Source of the DNA: an uncultured archaeon
GTDB taxonomy: Archaea; Aenigmatarchaeota; Aenigmatarchaeia; QMZP01; QMZT01
NCBI GenBank assembly: GCA_964347025.1
Contig: CAYFWU010000004.1
Location: 3,752-67,751 of the forward strand
DNA: 64,000 nt
Reading direction: 5' to 3'
In this document: positions 29,707-61,665 of the stretch, one piece after another
How the letters are laid out: each line of letters begins with the position of its first letter
How positions within the stretch are numbered: the stretch's first letter is position 1
The notes under the pieces: model-generated
Databases searched by the model: none
What the model saw: the letters and a program-made list of their open reading frames with translations, nothing else
What the model was told of the DNA's origin: nothing
Position numbers and translations under genes: made by a program

Positions 29707-29819
29707 GCTGGGGTGGCCGAGTGGTTAAGGCGCAGTAGCCTTTTGAGAAATCAATGGTTGCGCAAGGTTGCTAACCCTGTGGGCTTCGGCCCGCGCAGGT
29801 TCGAATCCTGTCCCCAGCG
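29707..29819 (+). tRNA. tRNA-Ser (anticodon GCU) with a 30-nt insertion in the 5' strand of the anticodon stem
   Basis: GCTGGGG-TG-GCCG-AGTGGTTAA-GGC-G-CAG[TAGCCTTTTGAGAAATCAATGGTTGCGCAA]GG-TTGCTAA-CCCTG-TGGGCTTCGGCCCGC-GCAGG-TTCGAAT-CCTGT-CCCCAGC-G. Class II variable arm. Confidence 0.7.
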
Positions 29820-43908: not shown

Positions 43909-45147
43909 CTACGGTTTAAACCATTCTATTTCATAGTATTCATACTTGGATTTTGGAAGAACGATCTTTTTCAGTTCGTAGTACGTTATTGAGGTTTCAC
44001 GATCTGTTATCGAGAGCAAAAGATTAAGGCCTGTATCCTTCGCCTTCTTCAACATTGAGGCGAGCTCAACCCCTCCAATGTGCTCGTCTTCAGATACCGA
44101 TACTAACACGTATCTTGGTTTATCCTTAGGGGTCTCTCTCACCCACACCCCTTTTCCTTTCTTCCTCCTGTAAGTCATGAAGTCTCCCTGATAATCAATG
44201 TAATCCTTCTTTTTCAATTCAGGGATCCCTAAGATAAACGTTTTCTTCACCCCGTGCGCAACGCGAACCGCTCTCGACCACTCAGAGATCAACAGTTTCT
44301 GCTCTTTGGGAAAAACATGGAGAACGTGCTTGGAGTGAACCCATTCCCCTCCCCTCACAGGAGAAGCTCCGGGGAAGTAAATACGAAAATGAGAACCGAA
44401 TTTAAACCCTGTTTTCACAACGTAACCTTTCAATCTCCAGTCCTCGTATATCTCATACAACTGTTTGGCATACTCCCTTTTTTTAACAACTTCTTTTAAG
44501 ATTCCCTCTGGTTTCATCTTCTTCCCGGTCTCGTTGCTTATAACCTCCAAGCCGAAGTGTTTCGCAAGGAAAATGGTCTCGAAGAAATTCAGTTTCGATT
44601 GCTTCCCTCTTTCCTGCTTGTACACTCCGTATTGCCCTATCCAGTATTTATCAAAAAGTTCTTTCCCAACCTTGTCGTTGTCCAGTATCGAAAACAGGGA
44701 ATCAGGGTACCAGTAGGCCTTTGCCTTAAGTTTCTCAGGTTTTAATTTCTGGGAAGGGTATTTCTTGTACGTTTTCTTCGAATGCTTACCCTGGACGTTT
44801 TCATTGAACCTTCTTACCACGAGACCGCGATCCCTCCAGTCCCTGTAAGCGTTATACCTTATGAACAGTCTCGGTTCTTTACCAATGAAATGTTTGGCCA
44901 GCGAATTGAAGTCGATCTCCTTCCCCCTCTTGTCCAGAACTACCGCATTCCTGAACATTATCAAATACATTGCTTCTTCGGGAAGTAGCGAGATCTTCCC
45001 CCCTTTCTGATTTCCGAAGAAATCATTCGTTAGTTTTCCAACTATCTCTGCCTCTTCCGCCCATATCCCCTTCCTAGGATCGAATTTCAGCTCAAGCATA
45101 GTAATACCTTTACCAACGGAATATATAAAATTAAAAAAACCCTTCAA
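43909..45147 (-). CDS. endA: tRNA-splicing endonuclease, single-chain three-unit form (alphaN-alpha-betaC-like)
   Basis: 412 aa (alternative ATG at 45099). Residues ~17-115 form an N-domain-like unit ending in YRDWRDRGLVV. Residues ~150-330 form a full catalytic unit (YEDWRLKGYVVKTGFKFGSHFRIY...HSKH...AHGVKK, the Tyr/His/Lys triad). Residues ~350-412 form a C-domain-only unit (YVLVSVSED...LLLSITDRETSITYYELK). Confidence 0.75.
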   Translation of the reverse strand: MKGFFNFIYSVGKGITMLELKFDPRKGIWAEEAEIVGKLTNDFFGNQKGGKISLLPEEAMYLIMFRNAVVLDKRGKEIDFNSLAKHFIGKEPRLFIRYNAYRDWRDRGLVVRRFNENVQGKHSKKTYKKYPSQKLKPEKLKAKAYWYPDSLFSILDNDKVGKELFDKYWIGQYGVYKQERGKQSKLNFFETIFLAKHFGLEVISNETGKKMKPEGILKEVVKKREYAKQLYEIYEDWRLKGYVVKTGFKFGSHFRIYFPGASPVRGGEWVHSKHVLHVFPKEQKLLISEWSRAVRVAHGVKKTFILGIPELKKKDYIDYQGDFMTYRRKKGKGVWVRETPKDKPRYVLVSVSEDEHIGGVELASMLKKAKDTGLNLLLSITDRETSITYYELKKIVLPKSKYEYYEIEWFKP

Positions 45148-48798: not shown

Positions 48799-50787
48799 TT
48801 AAACCTTTTGCACGTAACCCGGATTCGGCTCGAAAAGAAGGCCTTCTCTCTTTAGTTTCTCTATTATATCATCAACCTCCTCCACCCCTTCTTTCCTAGC
48901 GAGTTTCTGGATCTCGGAGATAGAAATCTCCTTGGTCTTCTCAGACAGGTCGTTTATTATGTCCATTACCATCCGGATTCTCGACCTCTCGCTGGAGCTC
49001 ACCGATGCCCCTTCCGCTCTGTCTATGTCTATCTGACCAGTTTCTGTATCGAATCCCAGCTGTGTAAGTGAGAACCTCATCAACCTGATCGCTCGCTGCG
49101 CGTCCTCCTTCCTTATCTCATTGTTTAACTGTATTCGGGCGGAGGCCTCTGCCAGACGGATGAGCGCCTCGAACTGACGGAGCGTGATAGGGATCGGACC
49201 GGCTCCACCCTCTGCTCGTTTTCTCATGTTTATGTAGAACCTTCTCATAATCTTCCCCGCCTCAGGCGTTAGGGTTGGCTCGCAATTCTGTTTGGTGTAA
49301 GCTATGTACTTCCTTATCAGTTCCTGATTTATCTTTGGTTTTGACCCTTCGAAATCTTCTTCCCTTGTCTTCAGAACGTGATCAACTATTTTCTTGTCCA
49401 TCTCCGCCTGGGGGACGTCCCTCAGAGCGAACTTCAAATCAAACCTCGTGAGCAGGGTATCGGGGATGGTTATCTGCTTCGCTATTGGCATGTAAGGATC
49501 GAACCTTGAAAACTTCGGGTTACCTCCTGCGAGAACAGAGGTCTGAGCAGGCAAGGTCGCAACGATAGAGGCCTTTGCGATAGAAATACTCCCCTGCTCG
49601 AGCGCCTCGTGCATTGCTATCTGATCGTCCGATGTCATCTTCTCAAACTCGTCTATTGCGAGCAACCCCTTGTTCGTTAACACCAACGCTCCTGCTTCCA
49701 GAACCCATCCTCCCATGAACTGCTCATCCTTCGTAACGGTTGCCGTCAATCCTGCTCCTGTCACTCCCTTCCCGCTCACGTACTTCCCTCTAGGAACGAT
49801 CTGCGGAACGAGTTTCATGAGCTGGGATTTCCCCGAAGAGGGATCCCCTATCAATAGTATGTGTACATCTCCTCGGAAGTGCGTCCCGTCCTTCAACGTC
49901 CTATGAACGCCTCCGAACAACTGGAGGATTATGGATTCCTTTATTTCCTTCATCCCGTAGAGCGATGGAGCGAGGGAATCAACAAGTTTATCATAAATTA
50001 ACGGATCTTTCGTCATCTTTTTTATCTCCTTCTCGTCCTCTTTGGTTATTTCCAGGTGTTGCAAACCTATCTCCACAGGTTCAACAAAATTTGAGTCAAG
50101 ATAAAAATCCAGTTTGACTGAAAAATATTTTCCTTTTGGGATCTCCCTCAGAATTCCCGTGATCTTTATCCTGTTCCCTGGATCCGTTAATCTCCTTCCT
50201 TCAGGCGAAACCAGATCCTCTGTAAGCAGGATGTTCAGCTGGGAAGGTCTCTCTCCCTCTGTCAGTTCGAACGGTTCATCTATCGTTATCCACCTTGTAT
50301 CAATCATTTTCCTGTCAACCTGCTTCAGTCCCTGCTTATTCCCGCAATTCGTACACTGCATTGGCTTAAAAATAACATTGGTTTTCCTTGGCTGCACTAT
50401 CTTCTCGTTGCAATCAGGACATTCCCATATGGTTTCTATAATTTCCGGGCGTATCTCACTGGCCCTCCTTACAACCCCTTCCACACAGCTGAATTTTCCG
50501 ATATGCCTCGATCTCAGATCCCTTATGTTGGTCAGGTCAATCCCCTTAACCTTCAGTTTCACGGGATTCGGGAGCTCGATCTGATCCAACGACTCATACG
50601 CTATGCCAAAAAACCTTTCAGGGTCCTTCAAGAGAAGATCGGACAGATCAGGATCATAAAGTTTTGAGAATTCAATCACCAAGGGTCTCCCCTCATTGGA
50701 GGCCTTCATGAGCTCTTTCTTATACACCTTCTCCAGGAATTCATTGAATTTCGCCACCAACTCCTCATGCTTATGCTTTTTCGCCAT
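48799..50787 (-). CDS. mcm: MCM replicative helicase
   Basis: 662 aa. Has a zinc motif (CPDC...CTNC), Walker A GDPSSGKSQ, Walker B LLAIDEFEKM, an arginine-finger region SRFDL and a C-terminal wHTH. Confidence 0.9.
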   Translation of the reverse strand: MAKKHKHEELVAKFNEFLEKVYKKELMKASNEGRPLVIEFSKLYDPDLSDLLLKDPERFFGIAYESLDQIELPNPVKLKVKGIDLTNIRDLRSRHIGKFSCVEGVVRRASEIRPEIIETIWECPDCNEKIVQPRKTNVIFKPMQCTNCGNKQGLKQVDRKMIDTRWITIDEPFELTEGERPSQLNILLTEDLVSPEGRRLTDPGNRIKITGILREIPKGKYFSVKLDFYLDSNFVEPVEIGLQHLEITKEDEKEIKKMTKDPLIYDKLVDSLAPSLYGMKEIKESIILQLFGGVHRTLKDGTHFRGDVHILLIGDPSSGKSQLMKLVPQIVPRGKYVSGKGVTGAGLTATVTKDEQFMGGWVLEAGALVLTNKGLLAIDEFEKMTSDDQIAMHEALEQGSISIAKASIVATLPAQTSVLAGGNPKFSRFDPYMPIAKQITIPDTLLTRFDLKFALRDVPQAEMDKKIVDHVLKTREEDFEGSKPKINQELIRKYIAYTKQNCEPTLTPEAGKIMRRFYINMRKRAEGGAGPIPITLRQFEALIRLAEASARIQLNNEIRKEDAQRAIRLMRFSLTQLGFDTETGQIDIDRAEGASVSSSERSRIRMVMDIINDLSEKTKEISISEIQKLARKEGVEEVDDIIEKLKREGLLFEPNPGYVQKV

Positions 50788-51650: not shown

Positions 51651-51683
51651 ACCTATAATTTTTAATTTAATTTAAAAAACAAA

Positions 51684-51819
51684 TGGGCCGGGCAGGATTC
51701 CCAACGACCTTTTGGGTGGCGAGCCTTTTTTGACTCGCGGAAGCGTCTGGAAAAGGTTCGCATTGAACCTGCGACCTTCGCGTTGTAAGCGCGACGTCAT
51801 ACCACTAGACCACCGGCCC
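51684..51819 (-). tRNA. tRNA-Val (anticodon UAC) with a 64-nt insertion in the T-loop
   Basis: Minus strand: GGGCCGG-TG-GTCT-AGTGGTA-TGAC-G-TCGCG-CTTACAA-CGCGA-AGGTC-GCAGG-TTCAA[..64 nt..]AT-CCTGC-CCGGCCC-A. The junction is ambiguous by 2 nt. Confidence 0.75.
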
Positions 51820-52251
51820 GGCTTATTCTAATTTGTTTCAATGTATTTATTAATTTTCAGAACCGGTAAAACTTTGAATTTTCAACAATTTTTGGCCATT
51901 TTCCGGCAATAAACCGATATGCTGAAACCCAAAAATAAAGTATTTAAGCACGTTCGTACATTATACAATCGAATACAGATTTTTGCCATCTTAAAACCCT
52001 TTGAAAGGAGGGAGGTCTACATGGCCAAGAAGAAGAAAGCAAAAAAGAAGAAATAATTTAAAGGTTTAAATTAGTCGGCAAATGGAAAACCGTTTCTTTG
52101 TTTGTTTTTGAAAACGCATGGTTGGGAATCCGGAATATGCAAAAGGGAGGTTGTGTATGTTCAGGCTAGAAGAGGATGAAGACTATGAAGAAGATGAAGA
52201 AGAAGACTTATGATTATCAGTAAATCCTTTATTTTTCATTTTTCTTATTTT

Positions 52252-58782: not shown

Positions 58783-58930
58783 TGCGCCGACCGGGACATT
58801 CAGACCGTTTTCCGTTGACGCTTTTCTGAAAAGGGTCATTTGAACCCGGGTTACAGGCTTGGGAAGCCCGTGTCCTAGTGCCCGCAAGTCCTTCTTGCGA
58901 AGTGAAGGCGCCAGGCTAGACTATCGGCGC
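58783..58930 (-). tRNA. tRNA-Gly (anticodon CCC) with two insertions (33 nt in D-loop, 42 nt in T-loop)
   Basis: Minus strand: GCGCCGA-TA-GTCT-AGCCTGG[33]TA-GGAC-A-CGGGC-TTCCCAA-GCCTG-TAAC-CCGGG-TTCAAAT[42]CCCGG-TCGGCGC-A. The exons total 73 nt. Confidence 0.75.
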
Positions 58931-61415: not shown

Positions 61416-61665
61416 CGCTGGGAGCAGGAAATTCGAGCGAAGCAGGTTTCACCTGCTTCATACGCCATTCGAACCTGCACGGGCAAAAAGCCCACCGGAT
61501 CTCTTGACATAGCTCGTCCGAGGACTTGCTGATGTAAGATACTGGTTTTGGTTGATCTTCATCTCCGCCGTATCCGAGTCAAGCCATCAAATCACCGCAA
61601 CGCAAGGTCGCTCATAAGATCCAGTGCTCAAGTCCGGCGCGTTAGCCTGGTTCCGCCATCCCAGC
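61416..61665 (-). tRNA. tRNA-Ser (anticodon UGA) with a 126-nt canonical-position intron and a 38-nt T-loop insertion
   Basis: Minus strand: GCTGGGA-TG-GCGG-AACCAGGCTAA-CGC-G-CCGGA-CTTGAG[126]A-TCCGG-TGGGCTTTTTGCCCGT-GCAGG-TTCGAAT[38]CCTGC-TCCCAGC-G. A TATTTATAAATA box lies about 30 nt upstream. Confidence 0.7.

What the first reader, a model, noticed from the sequence alone, without database searches (positions are those of the whole stretch)
51684..51819. tRNA-Val(UAC) with a 64-nt insertion inside the T-loop
The minus-strand sequence GGGCCGGTGGTCTAGTGGTATGACGTCGCGCTTACAACGCGAAGGTCGCAGG is a complete 5' three-quarters of a tRNA-Val, with anticodon loop CTTACAA. The matching 3' T-stem and acceptor (CCTGC-CCGGCCC-A) appear only after a 64-nt insertion that starts within TTCAA/T. 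The insertion carries its own helix (ACCTTTT...AAAAGGT).

Removing it restores TTCAAAT or TTCGAAT, depending on a 2-nt slide. This is the same insertion site class as in tRNA-Gly and tRNA-Ser(UGA) in this window. That suggests a lineage-specific preference for T-loop introns.
Basis: partly seen in the sequence, partly recalled or inferred. Interest (0 to 1): 0.6.

Follow-up and report, generated by a model that had tools for sequence, protein, structure and literature searches.

The report
tRNA-Val gene with T-loop intron
This is a real valine tRNA gene of an uncultivated Aenigmatarchaeota (DPANN) archaeon, split by a 64-base removable insert in its T-loop; this is a known kind of archaeal tRNA intron, but here it belongs to an intron family that has recently spread among the tRNA genes of this lineage.

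Summary
Window 51819-51684 (minus strand) is the only tRNA-Val(UAC) gene in a 1.06-Mb Aenigmatarchaeota MAG, and 64 nt interrupt its T-loop.

The intron lies between positions 59 and 60, at window 51761-51698, and the spliced T-loop is UUCAAUU. Two lines of evidence fix this:
- **Bulge-helix-bulge geometry.** The outer helix is the T-stem. The 4-bp central helix pairs UUCA (54-57) with UGGG. The bulges are AU|G and AA|U.
- **An intronless allele.** Another metagenome holds a copy with identical exons that breaks exactly at window 51762.

The machinery is present. An ARMAN-2-type three-unit (epsilon2) splicing endonuclease is encoded 6.5 kb away, and RtcB is in the genome.

About 23 of about 41 tRNA genes in this genome carry an intron at this site. 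In 18 of 21 that I tested, the same 4-bp helix can be drawn (background 2%).

The Val intron belongs to a sequence family also found in tRNA-Gly(UCC), His and Tyr of this genome and in tRNA-Lys of sister genomes. The orthologous Val-UAC genes of relatives have no intron, a different intron at the same site, or introns elsewhere.

No RNA data exist, so splicing is inferred. Verdict: a new member of a known kind (non-canonical 59/60 BHB intron with family-wise spread, as in ARMAN-2 and Thermoproteales).

The parts
51762..51819 (-). 5' exon, 58 nt: acceptor 5' strand, D-arm, anticodon arm (anticodon UAC at 51787-51785), variable loop, T-stem 5' strand GCAGG (51772-51768), T-loop nt 54-59 UUCAAU
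   Evidence: Contigs of a foreign metagenome match 51762-51820 with 0 differences and break exactly at 51762.
51698..51761 (-). Intron, 64 nt (GCGAACC...GUUGGGAA), between tRNA positions 59 and 60; member of the intron family called B' here
   Evidence: Borders come from BHB geometry and from the intronless allele.
51684..51697 (-). 3' exon, 14 nt: U60, T-stem 3' strand CCUGC, acceptor 3' strand CCGGCCC, discriminator A73
   Evidence: The joined exons are called tRNA-Val(tac), 72 nt, by ARAGORN.
51764..51767 (-). BHB central helix, exon strand: UUCA (T-loop 54-57)
   Evidence: Pairs with UGGG at 51703-51700. The same pairing is seen in 18 of 21 T-loop introns of the genome and is recovered by RNAalifold on four family members.
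51700..51703 (-). BHB central helix, intron strand: UGGG (two G.U, one G-C, one A-U)
51761..51763 (-). 5' bulge A58 U59 | G (cut after U59); it faces one unpaired U (51704), so it is a 3x1 loop, or a 2-nt bulge if the G.U pair closes
   Evidence: structure evaluated at -23.2 and -24.9 kcal/mol
51697..51699 (-). 3' bulge A A | U60 (cut before U60), directly 5' of the T-stem 3' strand
   Evidence: In all 21 T-loop introns the third bulge nucleotide is U.
51751..51760 (-). Inner helix, 5' strand: CGA(A)CCUUUU
   Evidence: Pairs with AAAAGGUCG at 51713-51705. 91% of cells are paired in the family alignment, with one compensatory pair.
51705..51713 (-). Inner helix, 3' strand: AAAAGGUCG
51719..51738 (-). 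Internal hairpin of the intron: GCGAGUC-AAAAAA-GGCUCGC; this part varies among family members
51844..51853 (-). A+T-rich TATA-like box TTAATAAATA, 25-34 nt upstream of the mature 5' end (inferred archaeal promoter)
   Evidence: Read directly; not tested
51674..51683 (-). T-run TTTGTTTTTT directly after A73 (inferred archaeal terminator). The first T-run of five or more comes after the 3' exon, which fits co-transcription of both exons.
   Evidence: Read directly; not tested
43909..45147 (-). Three-unit (epsilon-type) tRNA splicing endonuclease, 412 aa, the presumed enzyme that removes the intron
   Evidence: Pfam PF01974 twice plus PF02778. Full-length match to PDB 4FZ2, ARMAN-2 EndA, E = 3e-104. 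Catalytic Y/H/K and the Lys of the specificity loop (GVYK) are conserved (PMC3488258).
58783..58930 (-). tRNA-Gly(CCC), with a family-B intron at 59/60 as well as a D-loop intron
61416..61665 (-). tRNA-Ser(UGA), with a family-A intron at 59/60 as well as a long intron

Best explanation
The locus is the functional, single-copy tRNA-Val(UAC) gene of an Aenigmatarchaeota (DPANN) archaeon. It is probably transcribed as one precursor of about 136 nt or slightly more; a TATA-like box lies upstream and a T-run downstream (inferred). A 64-nt intron sits between T-loop positions 59 and 60. In the precursor the T-arm imitates an anticodon arm. The T-stem is the outer helix. T-loop nucleotides 54-57 (UUCA) pair with the intron's UGGG to form the 4-bp central helix. 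Each splice site lies after the second nucleotide of a 3-nt bulge (AU|G and AA|U). The intron's own CGA(A)CCUUUU/AAAAGGUCG helix is the inner helix. The genome's epsilon2-type splicing endonuclease, a homologue of the ARMAN-2 enzyme that cuts a 59/60 intron in vitro, is inferred to cut both bulges. RtcB would then join the exons to give a 72-nt tRNA with T-loop UUCAAUU. Shown here: the sequence, the structure that can be drawn, the enzymes encoded, the intron borders from an empty-site allele, and the family relations. Inferred: transcription, cleavage and ligation in vivo. The intron is a recent arrival. It belongs to a family (B') present in other tRNA genes of the genus, and it is absent from the orthologous gene of a same-genus genome.
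For: - **Exons.** The exons join into a canonical tRNA-Val(tac) of 72 nt.
- **Only copy, and needed.** It is the only Val-UAC gene found in the assembly. GUA makes up 13 per 1000 codons in 414 long ORFs.
- **Intronless allele.** In another study's metagenome, contigs match the 5' exon with 0 differences. The match stops exactly at window 51762 and continues as TCCTGCCCGGCCCA. This gives TTCAAT|T, and no slide of the junction is possible.
- **Relatives' T-loops.** Intronless orthologues have TTCGATT (G019) and TTCAATT (L079).
- **BHB register across the genome.** In 18 of 21 T-loop introns the 4 nt at -7 to -4 before the 3' T-stem pair perfectly with positions 54-57. The background is 2%, binomial P about 3e-28. 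The third bulge nucleotide is always U.
- **Covariation.** R57 covaries with the opposite Y: A-U versus G-C, Fisher P = 0.004.
- **Consensus fold.** RNAalifold on four family members recovers the T-stem, central helix and 3-nt 3' bulge without constraints. My BHB structure pairs 95.7% of cells; versions slid by 1 to 3 columns pair 34-62%.
- **Enzymes.** The EndA at window 43909-45147 matches PDB 4FZ2 over its full length (E = 3e-104) with the catalytic triad and ASL lysine conserved (PMC3488258). RtcB scores 524 bits.
- **Precedent.** The ARMAN-2 epsilon2 enzyme cleaves a 59/60 intron in vitro (PMC3239211).
Against: - No RNA run holds the sequence, so there is no read across the exon junction and no sign of the excised intron.
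- The BHB conformer is not the predicted minimum-energy fold. It scores -23.2 to -24.9 kcal/mol against -28.7 for a fold that pairs UUC with GAA one register off, and its ensemble probability is below 1%.
- The central helix has two G.U pairs, and the 5' bulge faces an unpaired U, so the motif is slightly relaxed.
- The genome is 89% complete, so a second, intronless Val-UAC gene cannot be strictly excluded.
Confidence: 0.88

Rival explanations
1. The gene is spliced, but at the junction the first reader proposed: one nucleotide earlier on both sides (after A58 and before A-U), or after C56. The T-loop would then be UUCAAAU or UUCGAAU.
For: UUCRAAU is the T-loop of nearly all other tRNAs of the genome. 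The same-genus orthologue G001 has TTCAAAT. The predicted minimum-energy fold does not show the 59/60 BHB.
Against: These cuts would not lie after the second nucleotide of two bulges 4 bp apart. All 20 other T-loop introns give a 7-nt T-loop on the 59/60 rule, and 17 of them show the full 4-bp central helix. An intronless allele with identical exons reads TTCAATT. The most similar orthologue, G019 (92% over the 5' exon), reads TTCGATT.
Confidence: 0.06
2. The gene is a pseudogene: a tRNA-Val gene inactivated by insertion of a small mobile DNA element (MITE-like, with terminal inverted repeats CGAACCTTTT/AAAAGGTCG), and it is not spliced.
For: The insert has inverted-repeat ends and occurs in several copies. 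There is no RNA evidence of splicing.
Against: There is no target-site duplication: the insert's 3' end is complementary to the flank, not identical to it. In this genome, copies occur only inside tRNA genes. The exons are identical to those of an intronless allele. It is the only GUA decoder found, while GUA is in common use. [quoted passage not shown]
Confidence: 0.04
3. The insert is an assembly or binning artefact, a chimeric join of a tRNA 5' part with foreign sequence.
For: Repeated intron sequences do break this assembly elsewhere: tRNA-Gly(UCC) is split over two contig ends.
Against: A 14-kb contig of run X1 and a 180-nt contig of run X2 both cover exon, intron and exon with 0 differences. 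The 3' exon fits the 5' exon perfectly.
Confidence: 0.01

Closest known systems
[quoted passage not shown] 2011, PMC3239211; Hirata et al. 2012, PMC3488258)
   Same: Same insertion site (59/60), same BHB logic in the T-arm, and a full-length homologue of the same three-unit endonuclease with the specificity-loop lysine. [quoted passage not shown]
   Different: The phylum differs (Aenigmatarchaeota). In the papers read here (2018, 2019) the epsilon2 type was reported only from Micrarchaeum and Mancarchaeum (PMC5829648, PMC6379350). The intron is much longer (64 nt against 13 nt), is structured, and belongs to a multi-copy family. The T-loop site is used in about half of all tRNA genes.
Transposed tRNA intron families of Thermoproteales (Sugahara et al. 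2008; Fujishima et al. 2010, Mol Biol Evol 27:2233, as summarised in PMC4033280)
   Same: Similar intron sequences sit in non-orthologous tRNAs and at different positions. Orthologues differ in presence or absence of the intron, which implies recent gain.
   Different: The host is a DPANN lineage with an epsilon2 enzyme, not Crenarchaeota with an (alpha-beta)2 enzyme. The site use is strongly biased to 59/60. There are also nested introns, and a tRNA-Val 3' exon copy lies inside another tRNA's intron. I cannot say whether such cases were described for Thermoproteales; the 2010 paper itself was not read.
Canonical archaeal 37/38 BHB intron
   Same: The geometry matches: a 5-bp stem, then 4 loop nucleotides in the central helix, then a cut after the sixth loop nucleotide (31+6 = 37; 53+6 = 59).
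   Different: It lies in the T-arm instead of the anticodon arm. The 5' bulge is slightly relaxed.

Membership tests
Archaeal BHB tRNA intron at non-canonical position 59/60 | The exons join into a complete canonical tRNA. | tested here: met
   ARAGORN calls the joined exons tRNA-Val(tac), 72 nt, with a 7-nt T-loop. An intronless allele with the same sequence exists.
Archaeal BHB tRNA intron at non-canonical position 59/60 | Two 3-nt bulges are separated by a 4-bp helix, and each splice site lies after the second bulge nucleotide. | tested here: met
   The motif can be drawn as UUCA/UGGG with bulges AU|G and AA|U. It is supported by 18 of 21 paralogous introns, by covariation and by the alifold consensus. 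Caveats: the 5' bulge faces one unpaired U, and the motif is not the predicted minimum-energy fold.
Archaeal BHB tRNA intron at non-canonical position 59/60 | The host encodes a splicing endonuclease of a broad-specificity type ((alpha-beta)2 or epsilon2). | tested here: met
   Window 43909-45147: PF01974 twice plus PF02778. Match to 4FZ2 with E = 3e-104 over residues 28-412; Y/H/K triad and ASL Lys conserved.
Archaeal BHB tRNA intron at non-canonical position 59/60 | The host encodes the RtcB ligase that joins the exons. | tested here: met
   G000:C1:66483-67751, PF01139, 524 bits.
Archaeal BHB tRNA intron at non-canonical position 59/60 | The intron is excised in vivo (spliced tRNA, free or circular intron). 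| not testable with these tools
   No RNA run holds the sequence.
Transposed or multi-copy tRNA intron family (Thermoproteales type) | Significantly similar intron sequences occur in non-orthologous tRNA genes or at other positions. | tested here: met
   Against G001 tRNA-Lys(CUU): 49 of 64 identical, z = 11.6. Against G002 tRNA-Lys: z = 9.2. Against own His and Tyr: z about 6. Own Gly-UCC: 23 of 24 identical. G002 tRNA-Leu carries a copy in the D-loop.
Transposed or multi-copy tRNA intron family (Thermoproteales type) | Orthologous genes differ in presence or absence of the intron. | tested here: met
   Syntenic Val-UAC genes upstream of MCM: none in G001 and G019; a different 38-nt intron at 59/60 in L001, L002 and L006; D-loop and/or 37/38 introns in L004, L005, L009, L010, L012, L038 and L057.
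Group I or group II self-splicing intron | A catalytic RNA core of hundreds of nucleotides. | tested here: not met
   The insert is 64 nt. No Rfam intron family hits the region even at E up to 10.
MITE or IS-derived insertion | Target-site duplication, and copies outside tRNA genes. | tested here: not met
   The flanks are complementary, not duplicated. The only significant copies in the genome are in tRNA genes.
Box C/D sRNA-bearing tRNA intron (tRNA-Trp type) | Box C (RUGAUGA) and box D (CUGA) within the intron. | tested here: not met
   Neither motif occurs in the 64-nt intron sequence (read directly).
Split or permuted tRNA gene | The halves are encoded at separate loci or in reversed order. 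| tested here: not met
   Both exons are contiguous and in order on one strand within 136 nt.

The most novel reading that the evidence does not exclude
The T-loop introns of this lineage, including the one in tRNA-Val(UAC), may be currently active mobile RNA or DNA elements that carry a portable half of a BHB. Their 3' end (YGRR plus 2 nt) pairs with the almost universal T-loop sequence UUCR. Any tRNA's 59/60 site therefore becomes a ready-made, spliceable landing site. This would explain four things:
- about half of all tRNA genes are hit at this one position;
- orthologues carry different families at the same site;
- one family sits nested inside another;
- a tRNA-Val 3' exon is fossilised inside the tRNA-His intron.

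Spread would be by gene conversion between T-arms or by reverse splicing. The Val-UAC copy would be one of the youngest insertions.
Probability: 0.35. Interest if true: 0.65.

Novelty: new member of a known kind. Interest (0 to 1): 0.4.

Why it matters
For annotation: standard tRNA finders see 8 (ARAGORN) to about 19 (Rfam, at the gathering score) of the roughly 41 tRNA genes of this genome. They miss this sole GUA decoder or truncate it. Genomes of this phylum will therefore look as if they lack essential tRNAs.

For biology: the locus is a clean case of recent intron gain. An identical-exon empty site exists, and orthologues carry other introns. The lineage combines an ARMAN-2-type epsilon2 endonuclease with massive use of one non-canonical site. 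That makes Aenigmatarchaeota a second natural system, independent of Thermoproteales, for asking how BHB introns spread and why the T-loop is favoured.

Tried and rejected
- **RNA evidence.** Two searches for runs found only DNA metagenomes, so splicing could not be observed.
- **Thermodynamic folding.** The minimum-energy fold of the precursor pairs UUC with GAA and gives a 3x3 loop, not a BHB. Only 7 of 21 T-loop introns show the central helix in their minimum-energy fold. I therefore relied on comparative evidence instead.
- **Standard finders.** ARAGORN with its intron option and Rfam tRNA do not span the gene.
- **First genome scan.** My first scan for T-loop inserts was far too loose (577 hits) and had to be tightened.
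- **Homology to other intron families.** Similarity of the Val intron to the short family B (Val-CAC, Gly-CCC, Ala-CGC) and to family A is not significant (z = 2.6 and 1.3), so I do not claim it.
- **Functional RNA in the intron.** There are no box C/D motifs and no Rfam hit. The wcaG and tracrRNA hits are far below their cut-offs and were treated as chance.
- **MITE, group I/II intron, split tRNA, assembly artefact.** All rejected; see the membership tests and rival explanations.
- **Covariance-model search.** I did not build a model to trace family B' more widely. BLAST-level evidence already answered the question of related versus independent.

Full report
**1. What is in the sequence**

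The minus strand of window 51819-51684 reads GGGCCGG UG GUCU AGUGGUA UGAC G UCGCG CUUACAA CGCGA AGGUC GCAGG UUCAAU, then 64 nt, then U CCUGC CCGGCCC A.
- Rfam's tRNA model matches only the first 56 nt (33.5 bits) and breaks off in the T-loop.
- ARAGORN does not see the gene, with or without its intron option.
- Joining the exons gives a 72-nt sequence that ARAGORN calls tRNA-Val(tac) with a regular cloverleaf.
- A 14-kb contig of one metagenome run and a 180-nt contig of a second run reproduce exon, intron and exon with no difference. The two runs are from the same study, and one may be the source sample.

**2. Organism and context**

The window lies in a 1.06-Mb, 40-contig, 43% G+C genome that is 89% complete.
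- Relatives of the neighbouring MCM gene (48799-50787) are, where named, nearly all titled Candidatus Aenigmatarchaeota.
- The gene order on the minus strand is iorA, iorB, a 430-nt gap, tRNA-Val, a glycosyltransferase, MCM.
- A TATA-like TTAATAAATA lies 25-34 nt upstream of the mature 5' end, and TTTGTTTTTT follows A73. These are inferred signals and were not tested.
- No other tRNA-Val(UAC) gene is found in the assembly. GUA accounts for 13 per 1000 codons in 414 long ORFs. The gene should therefore be needed.

**3. Where exactly the intron is**

Two independent lines place the intron between positions 59 and 60 (window 51761-51698), which gives UUCAAUU.

(a) *Geometry.* In a bulge-helix-bulge substrate each cut follows the second nucleotide of a 3-nt bulge, and the bulges lie 3' of the two strands of a 4-bp helix. 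This follows from established knowledge of the canonical 37/38 case. Here the parts are:
- outer helix: GCAGG/CCUGC;
- central helix: UUCA (54-57) with UGGG;
- bulges: A58 U59 | G and A A | U60;
- inner helix: CGA(A)CCUUUU/AAAAGGUCG.

(b) *Empty site.* In a sediment metagenome of another study, contigs match the 5' exon with 0 differences. The match stops exactly at window 51762 and runs on as TCCTGCCCGGCCCATAATTTC. That is an intronless tRNA-Val(UAC) with T-loop TTCAAT|T in a different genomic flank. The exon ends in U and the intron in A, and the intron starts with G and the 3' exon with U. No slide of the junction is possible. Intronless orthologues with TTCGATT (G019, the most similar at 92%) and TTCAATT (L079) show that U59-U60 is normal for this tRNA.

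**4. Is the BHB more than a drawing?**

Thermodynamics alone does not favour it. The BHB conformer evaluates to -23.2 kcal/mol, or -24.9 with a closing G.U. The fold that pairs UUC with GAA scores -28.7. The comparative evidence is strong.
- My scan of the genome finds at least 21 readable tRNA genes with an insert in the T-loop. Two more exist: Thr-GGU, whose insert is masked, and Gly-UCC, which is split over two contig ends.
- In 18 of the 21, the 4 nt at -7 to -4 before the 3' T-stem pair perfectly with positions 54-57. The background is 2% at other intron positions, binomial P about 3e-28.
- In all 21 the last bulge nucleotide is U. On the 59/60 rule, 19 of the 21 give the T-loop UUCRAAU.
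- Position 57 covaries with its partner (A-U versus G-C, Fisher P = 0.004).
- RNAalifold on four members of the Val intron's family returns the T-stem, the central helix and the 3-nt 3' bulge without any constraint.
- My full BHB structure pairs 95.7% of cells, against 34-62% when the partners are slid by 1 to 3 columns.
- The 5' side is slightly relaxed. In Val the bulge faces one unpaired U, and in the Lys copies it faces two unpaired nucleotides.

**5. Machinery**

Window 43909-45147 encodes a 412-aa protein.
- It has one N-terminal and two C-terminal endonuclease domains.
- It aligns over its whole length with PDB 4FZ2, the three-unit epsilon2 endonuclease of ARMAN-2 (E = 3e-104).
- FRIY, HSKH and VKKT keep the Y236/H251/K282 triad. 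[quoted passage not shown]
- That enzyme cuts an ARMAN-2 pre-tRNA-Cys with a 59/60 intron in vitro (PMC3239211).
- RtcB is present.

Cleavage and ligation in this organism are inferred, because no RNA run holds the sequence.

**6. Related or independent?**

Related. I call the Val intron's family B'.

*Copies of family B':*
- The Val intron shares 49 of 64 positions with the 59/60 intron of tRNA-Lys(CUU) in the same-genus genome G001 (z = 11.6 against shuffles).
- It shares 47 of 64 with the outer part of the tRNA-Lys introns of G002.
- It is recognisably similar to the T-loop introns of this genome's tRNA-His and tRNA-Tyr (z about 6).
- This genome's tRNA-Gly(UCC) has the closest copy. The assembly breaks inside it.
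- A copy sits in the D-loop of a G002 tRNA-Leu.
- tRNA-Tyr of another genus (G021) carries the family too.
- No copy lies outside tRNA genes in this genome.

*Other families at the same site:* family A (GGCGUAUGAAGCAG...) and family B (GACCCUUUU...) are not significantly similar to B'.

*The orthologous Val-UAC gene, syntenic upstream of MCM, across relatives:*
- no intron in G001 (same genus) and G019;
- a family-A intron at the same 59/60 site in L001, L002 and L006;
- D-loop and/or 37/38 introns in seven other relatives.

The Val-UAC intron is therefore a recent, lineage-specific gain, or a replacement, in a gene that is hit again and again.

*A plausible reason for the site preference (inference):* the T-loop sequence UUCR is nearly universal. 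An intron whose 3' end is YGRR-NN forms the central helix in any tRNA, so it stays spliceable wherever it lands at 59/60.

**7. Comparison with what is known**

Non-canonical BHB introns at 59/60 are described for ARMAN-2 and Thermoproteales. Family-wise intron transposition is described for Thermoproteales (PMC3239211, PMC4033280).
- In the papers I could read, the epsilon2 enzyme was known only from Micrarchaeum and Mancarchaeum (PMC5829648, PMC6379350).
- A full-text search found no paper describing tRNA introns of Aenigmatarchaeota.
- The gene is thus a new member of a known kind.
- The genome-wide pattern is the more interesting part: about 23 of about 41 tRNA genes are hit at one site, introns are nested, and an exon fossil survives.

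**8. Verdict**

My confidence in the explanation is 0.88. The remaining doubt is the lack of RNA evidence.

Noticed in passing
G000:C8:6132-6343 (minus strand; outside the window): tRNA-His(GUG) has a 107-nt T-loop intron of family B'. It contains GGGGAAT-CTGGC-CCGGCCC-A, which is the 3' end of a B' intron followed by a complete tRNA-Val(UAC) 3' exon of the G001/L001 type and 5 nt of trailer. A repeat of GGCTGGCCAAAAGTG follows. It looks like a fossil of exchange between intron-bearing tRNA genes at the DNA or primary-transcript level.
   Followed up: partly
L107, L108, L114 (G002 tRNA-Lys(CUU), tRNA-Lys(UUU), tRNA-His): A family-A element (GGACGTATGACGCATAC...GTATGCGTC) is nested inside the B' T-loop intron. 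It has its own BHB-like ends (UUGA/UCGA). The two Lys genes share the identical composite intron.
   Followed up: partly
G000:C16:22810-22904 and C14:1-47: tRNA-Gly(UCC) is split over two contig ends, and the break lies inside its B' intron. Repeated intron sequence appears to fragment the assembly.
   Followed up: partly
   Followed up: no
G000:C3:70430-70637; L116 (G001); L115 (G021): The T-loop intron of tRNA-Tyr(GUA) ends in GRAC-AAAU in three genomes and does not fit the 59/60 register. GRAC pairs with G53-U54-U55-C56 instead, which suggests a shifted or relaxed motif.
   Followed up: partly
L036, L037, L043, L044 against G000:C16:8131-8246, window 58783-58930 and G000:C10:23818 region: Intron family B (TGACCCTTTT...AAAAGCGTCAACGGAAAACGG) sits at 59/60 in this genome's Val-CAC, Gly-CCC and Ala-CGC. 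In distant Aenigmatarchaeota it sits at 37/38 of tRNA-Val(GAC), and it is tandemly duplicated in L043 and L044.
   Followed up: partly
window 43909-45147 (minus strand): An epsilon2-type (three-unit) splicing endonuclease in an Aenigmatarchaeota genome. The 2018 and 2019 papers read here list this type only for Micrarchaeum and Mancarchaeum.
   Followed up: partly
L004, L005, L006, L009, L010, L012, L038, L057 (syntenic tRNA-Val(UAC) upstream of MCM): The same orthologous gene carries from zero to at least two introns (D-loop, 37/38, 59/60) in different Aenigmatarchaeota. This is an unusually variable locus.
   Followed up: partly
window 29707-29819 (plus strand): An intron-bearing tRNA-Ser-like gene (Rfam 41.8 bits). 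Its T-arm is intact, and its insert lies in or near the anticodon loop.
   Followed up: no
whole genome G000: ARAGORN in default mode finds only 8 tRNA genes in 1.06 Mb. Rfam reaches its cut-off for 19. About 41 can be recognised by hand and by script.
   Followed up: yes
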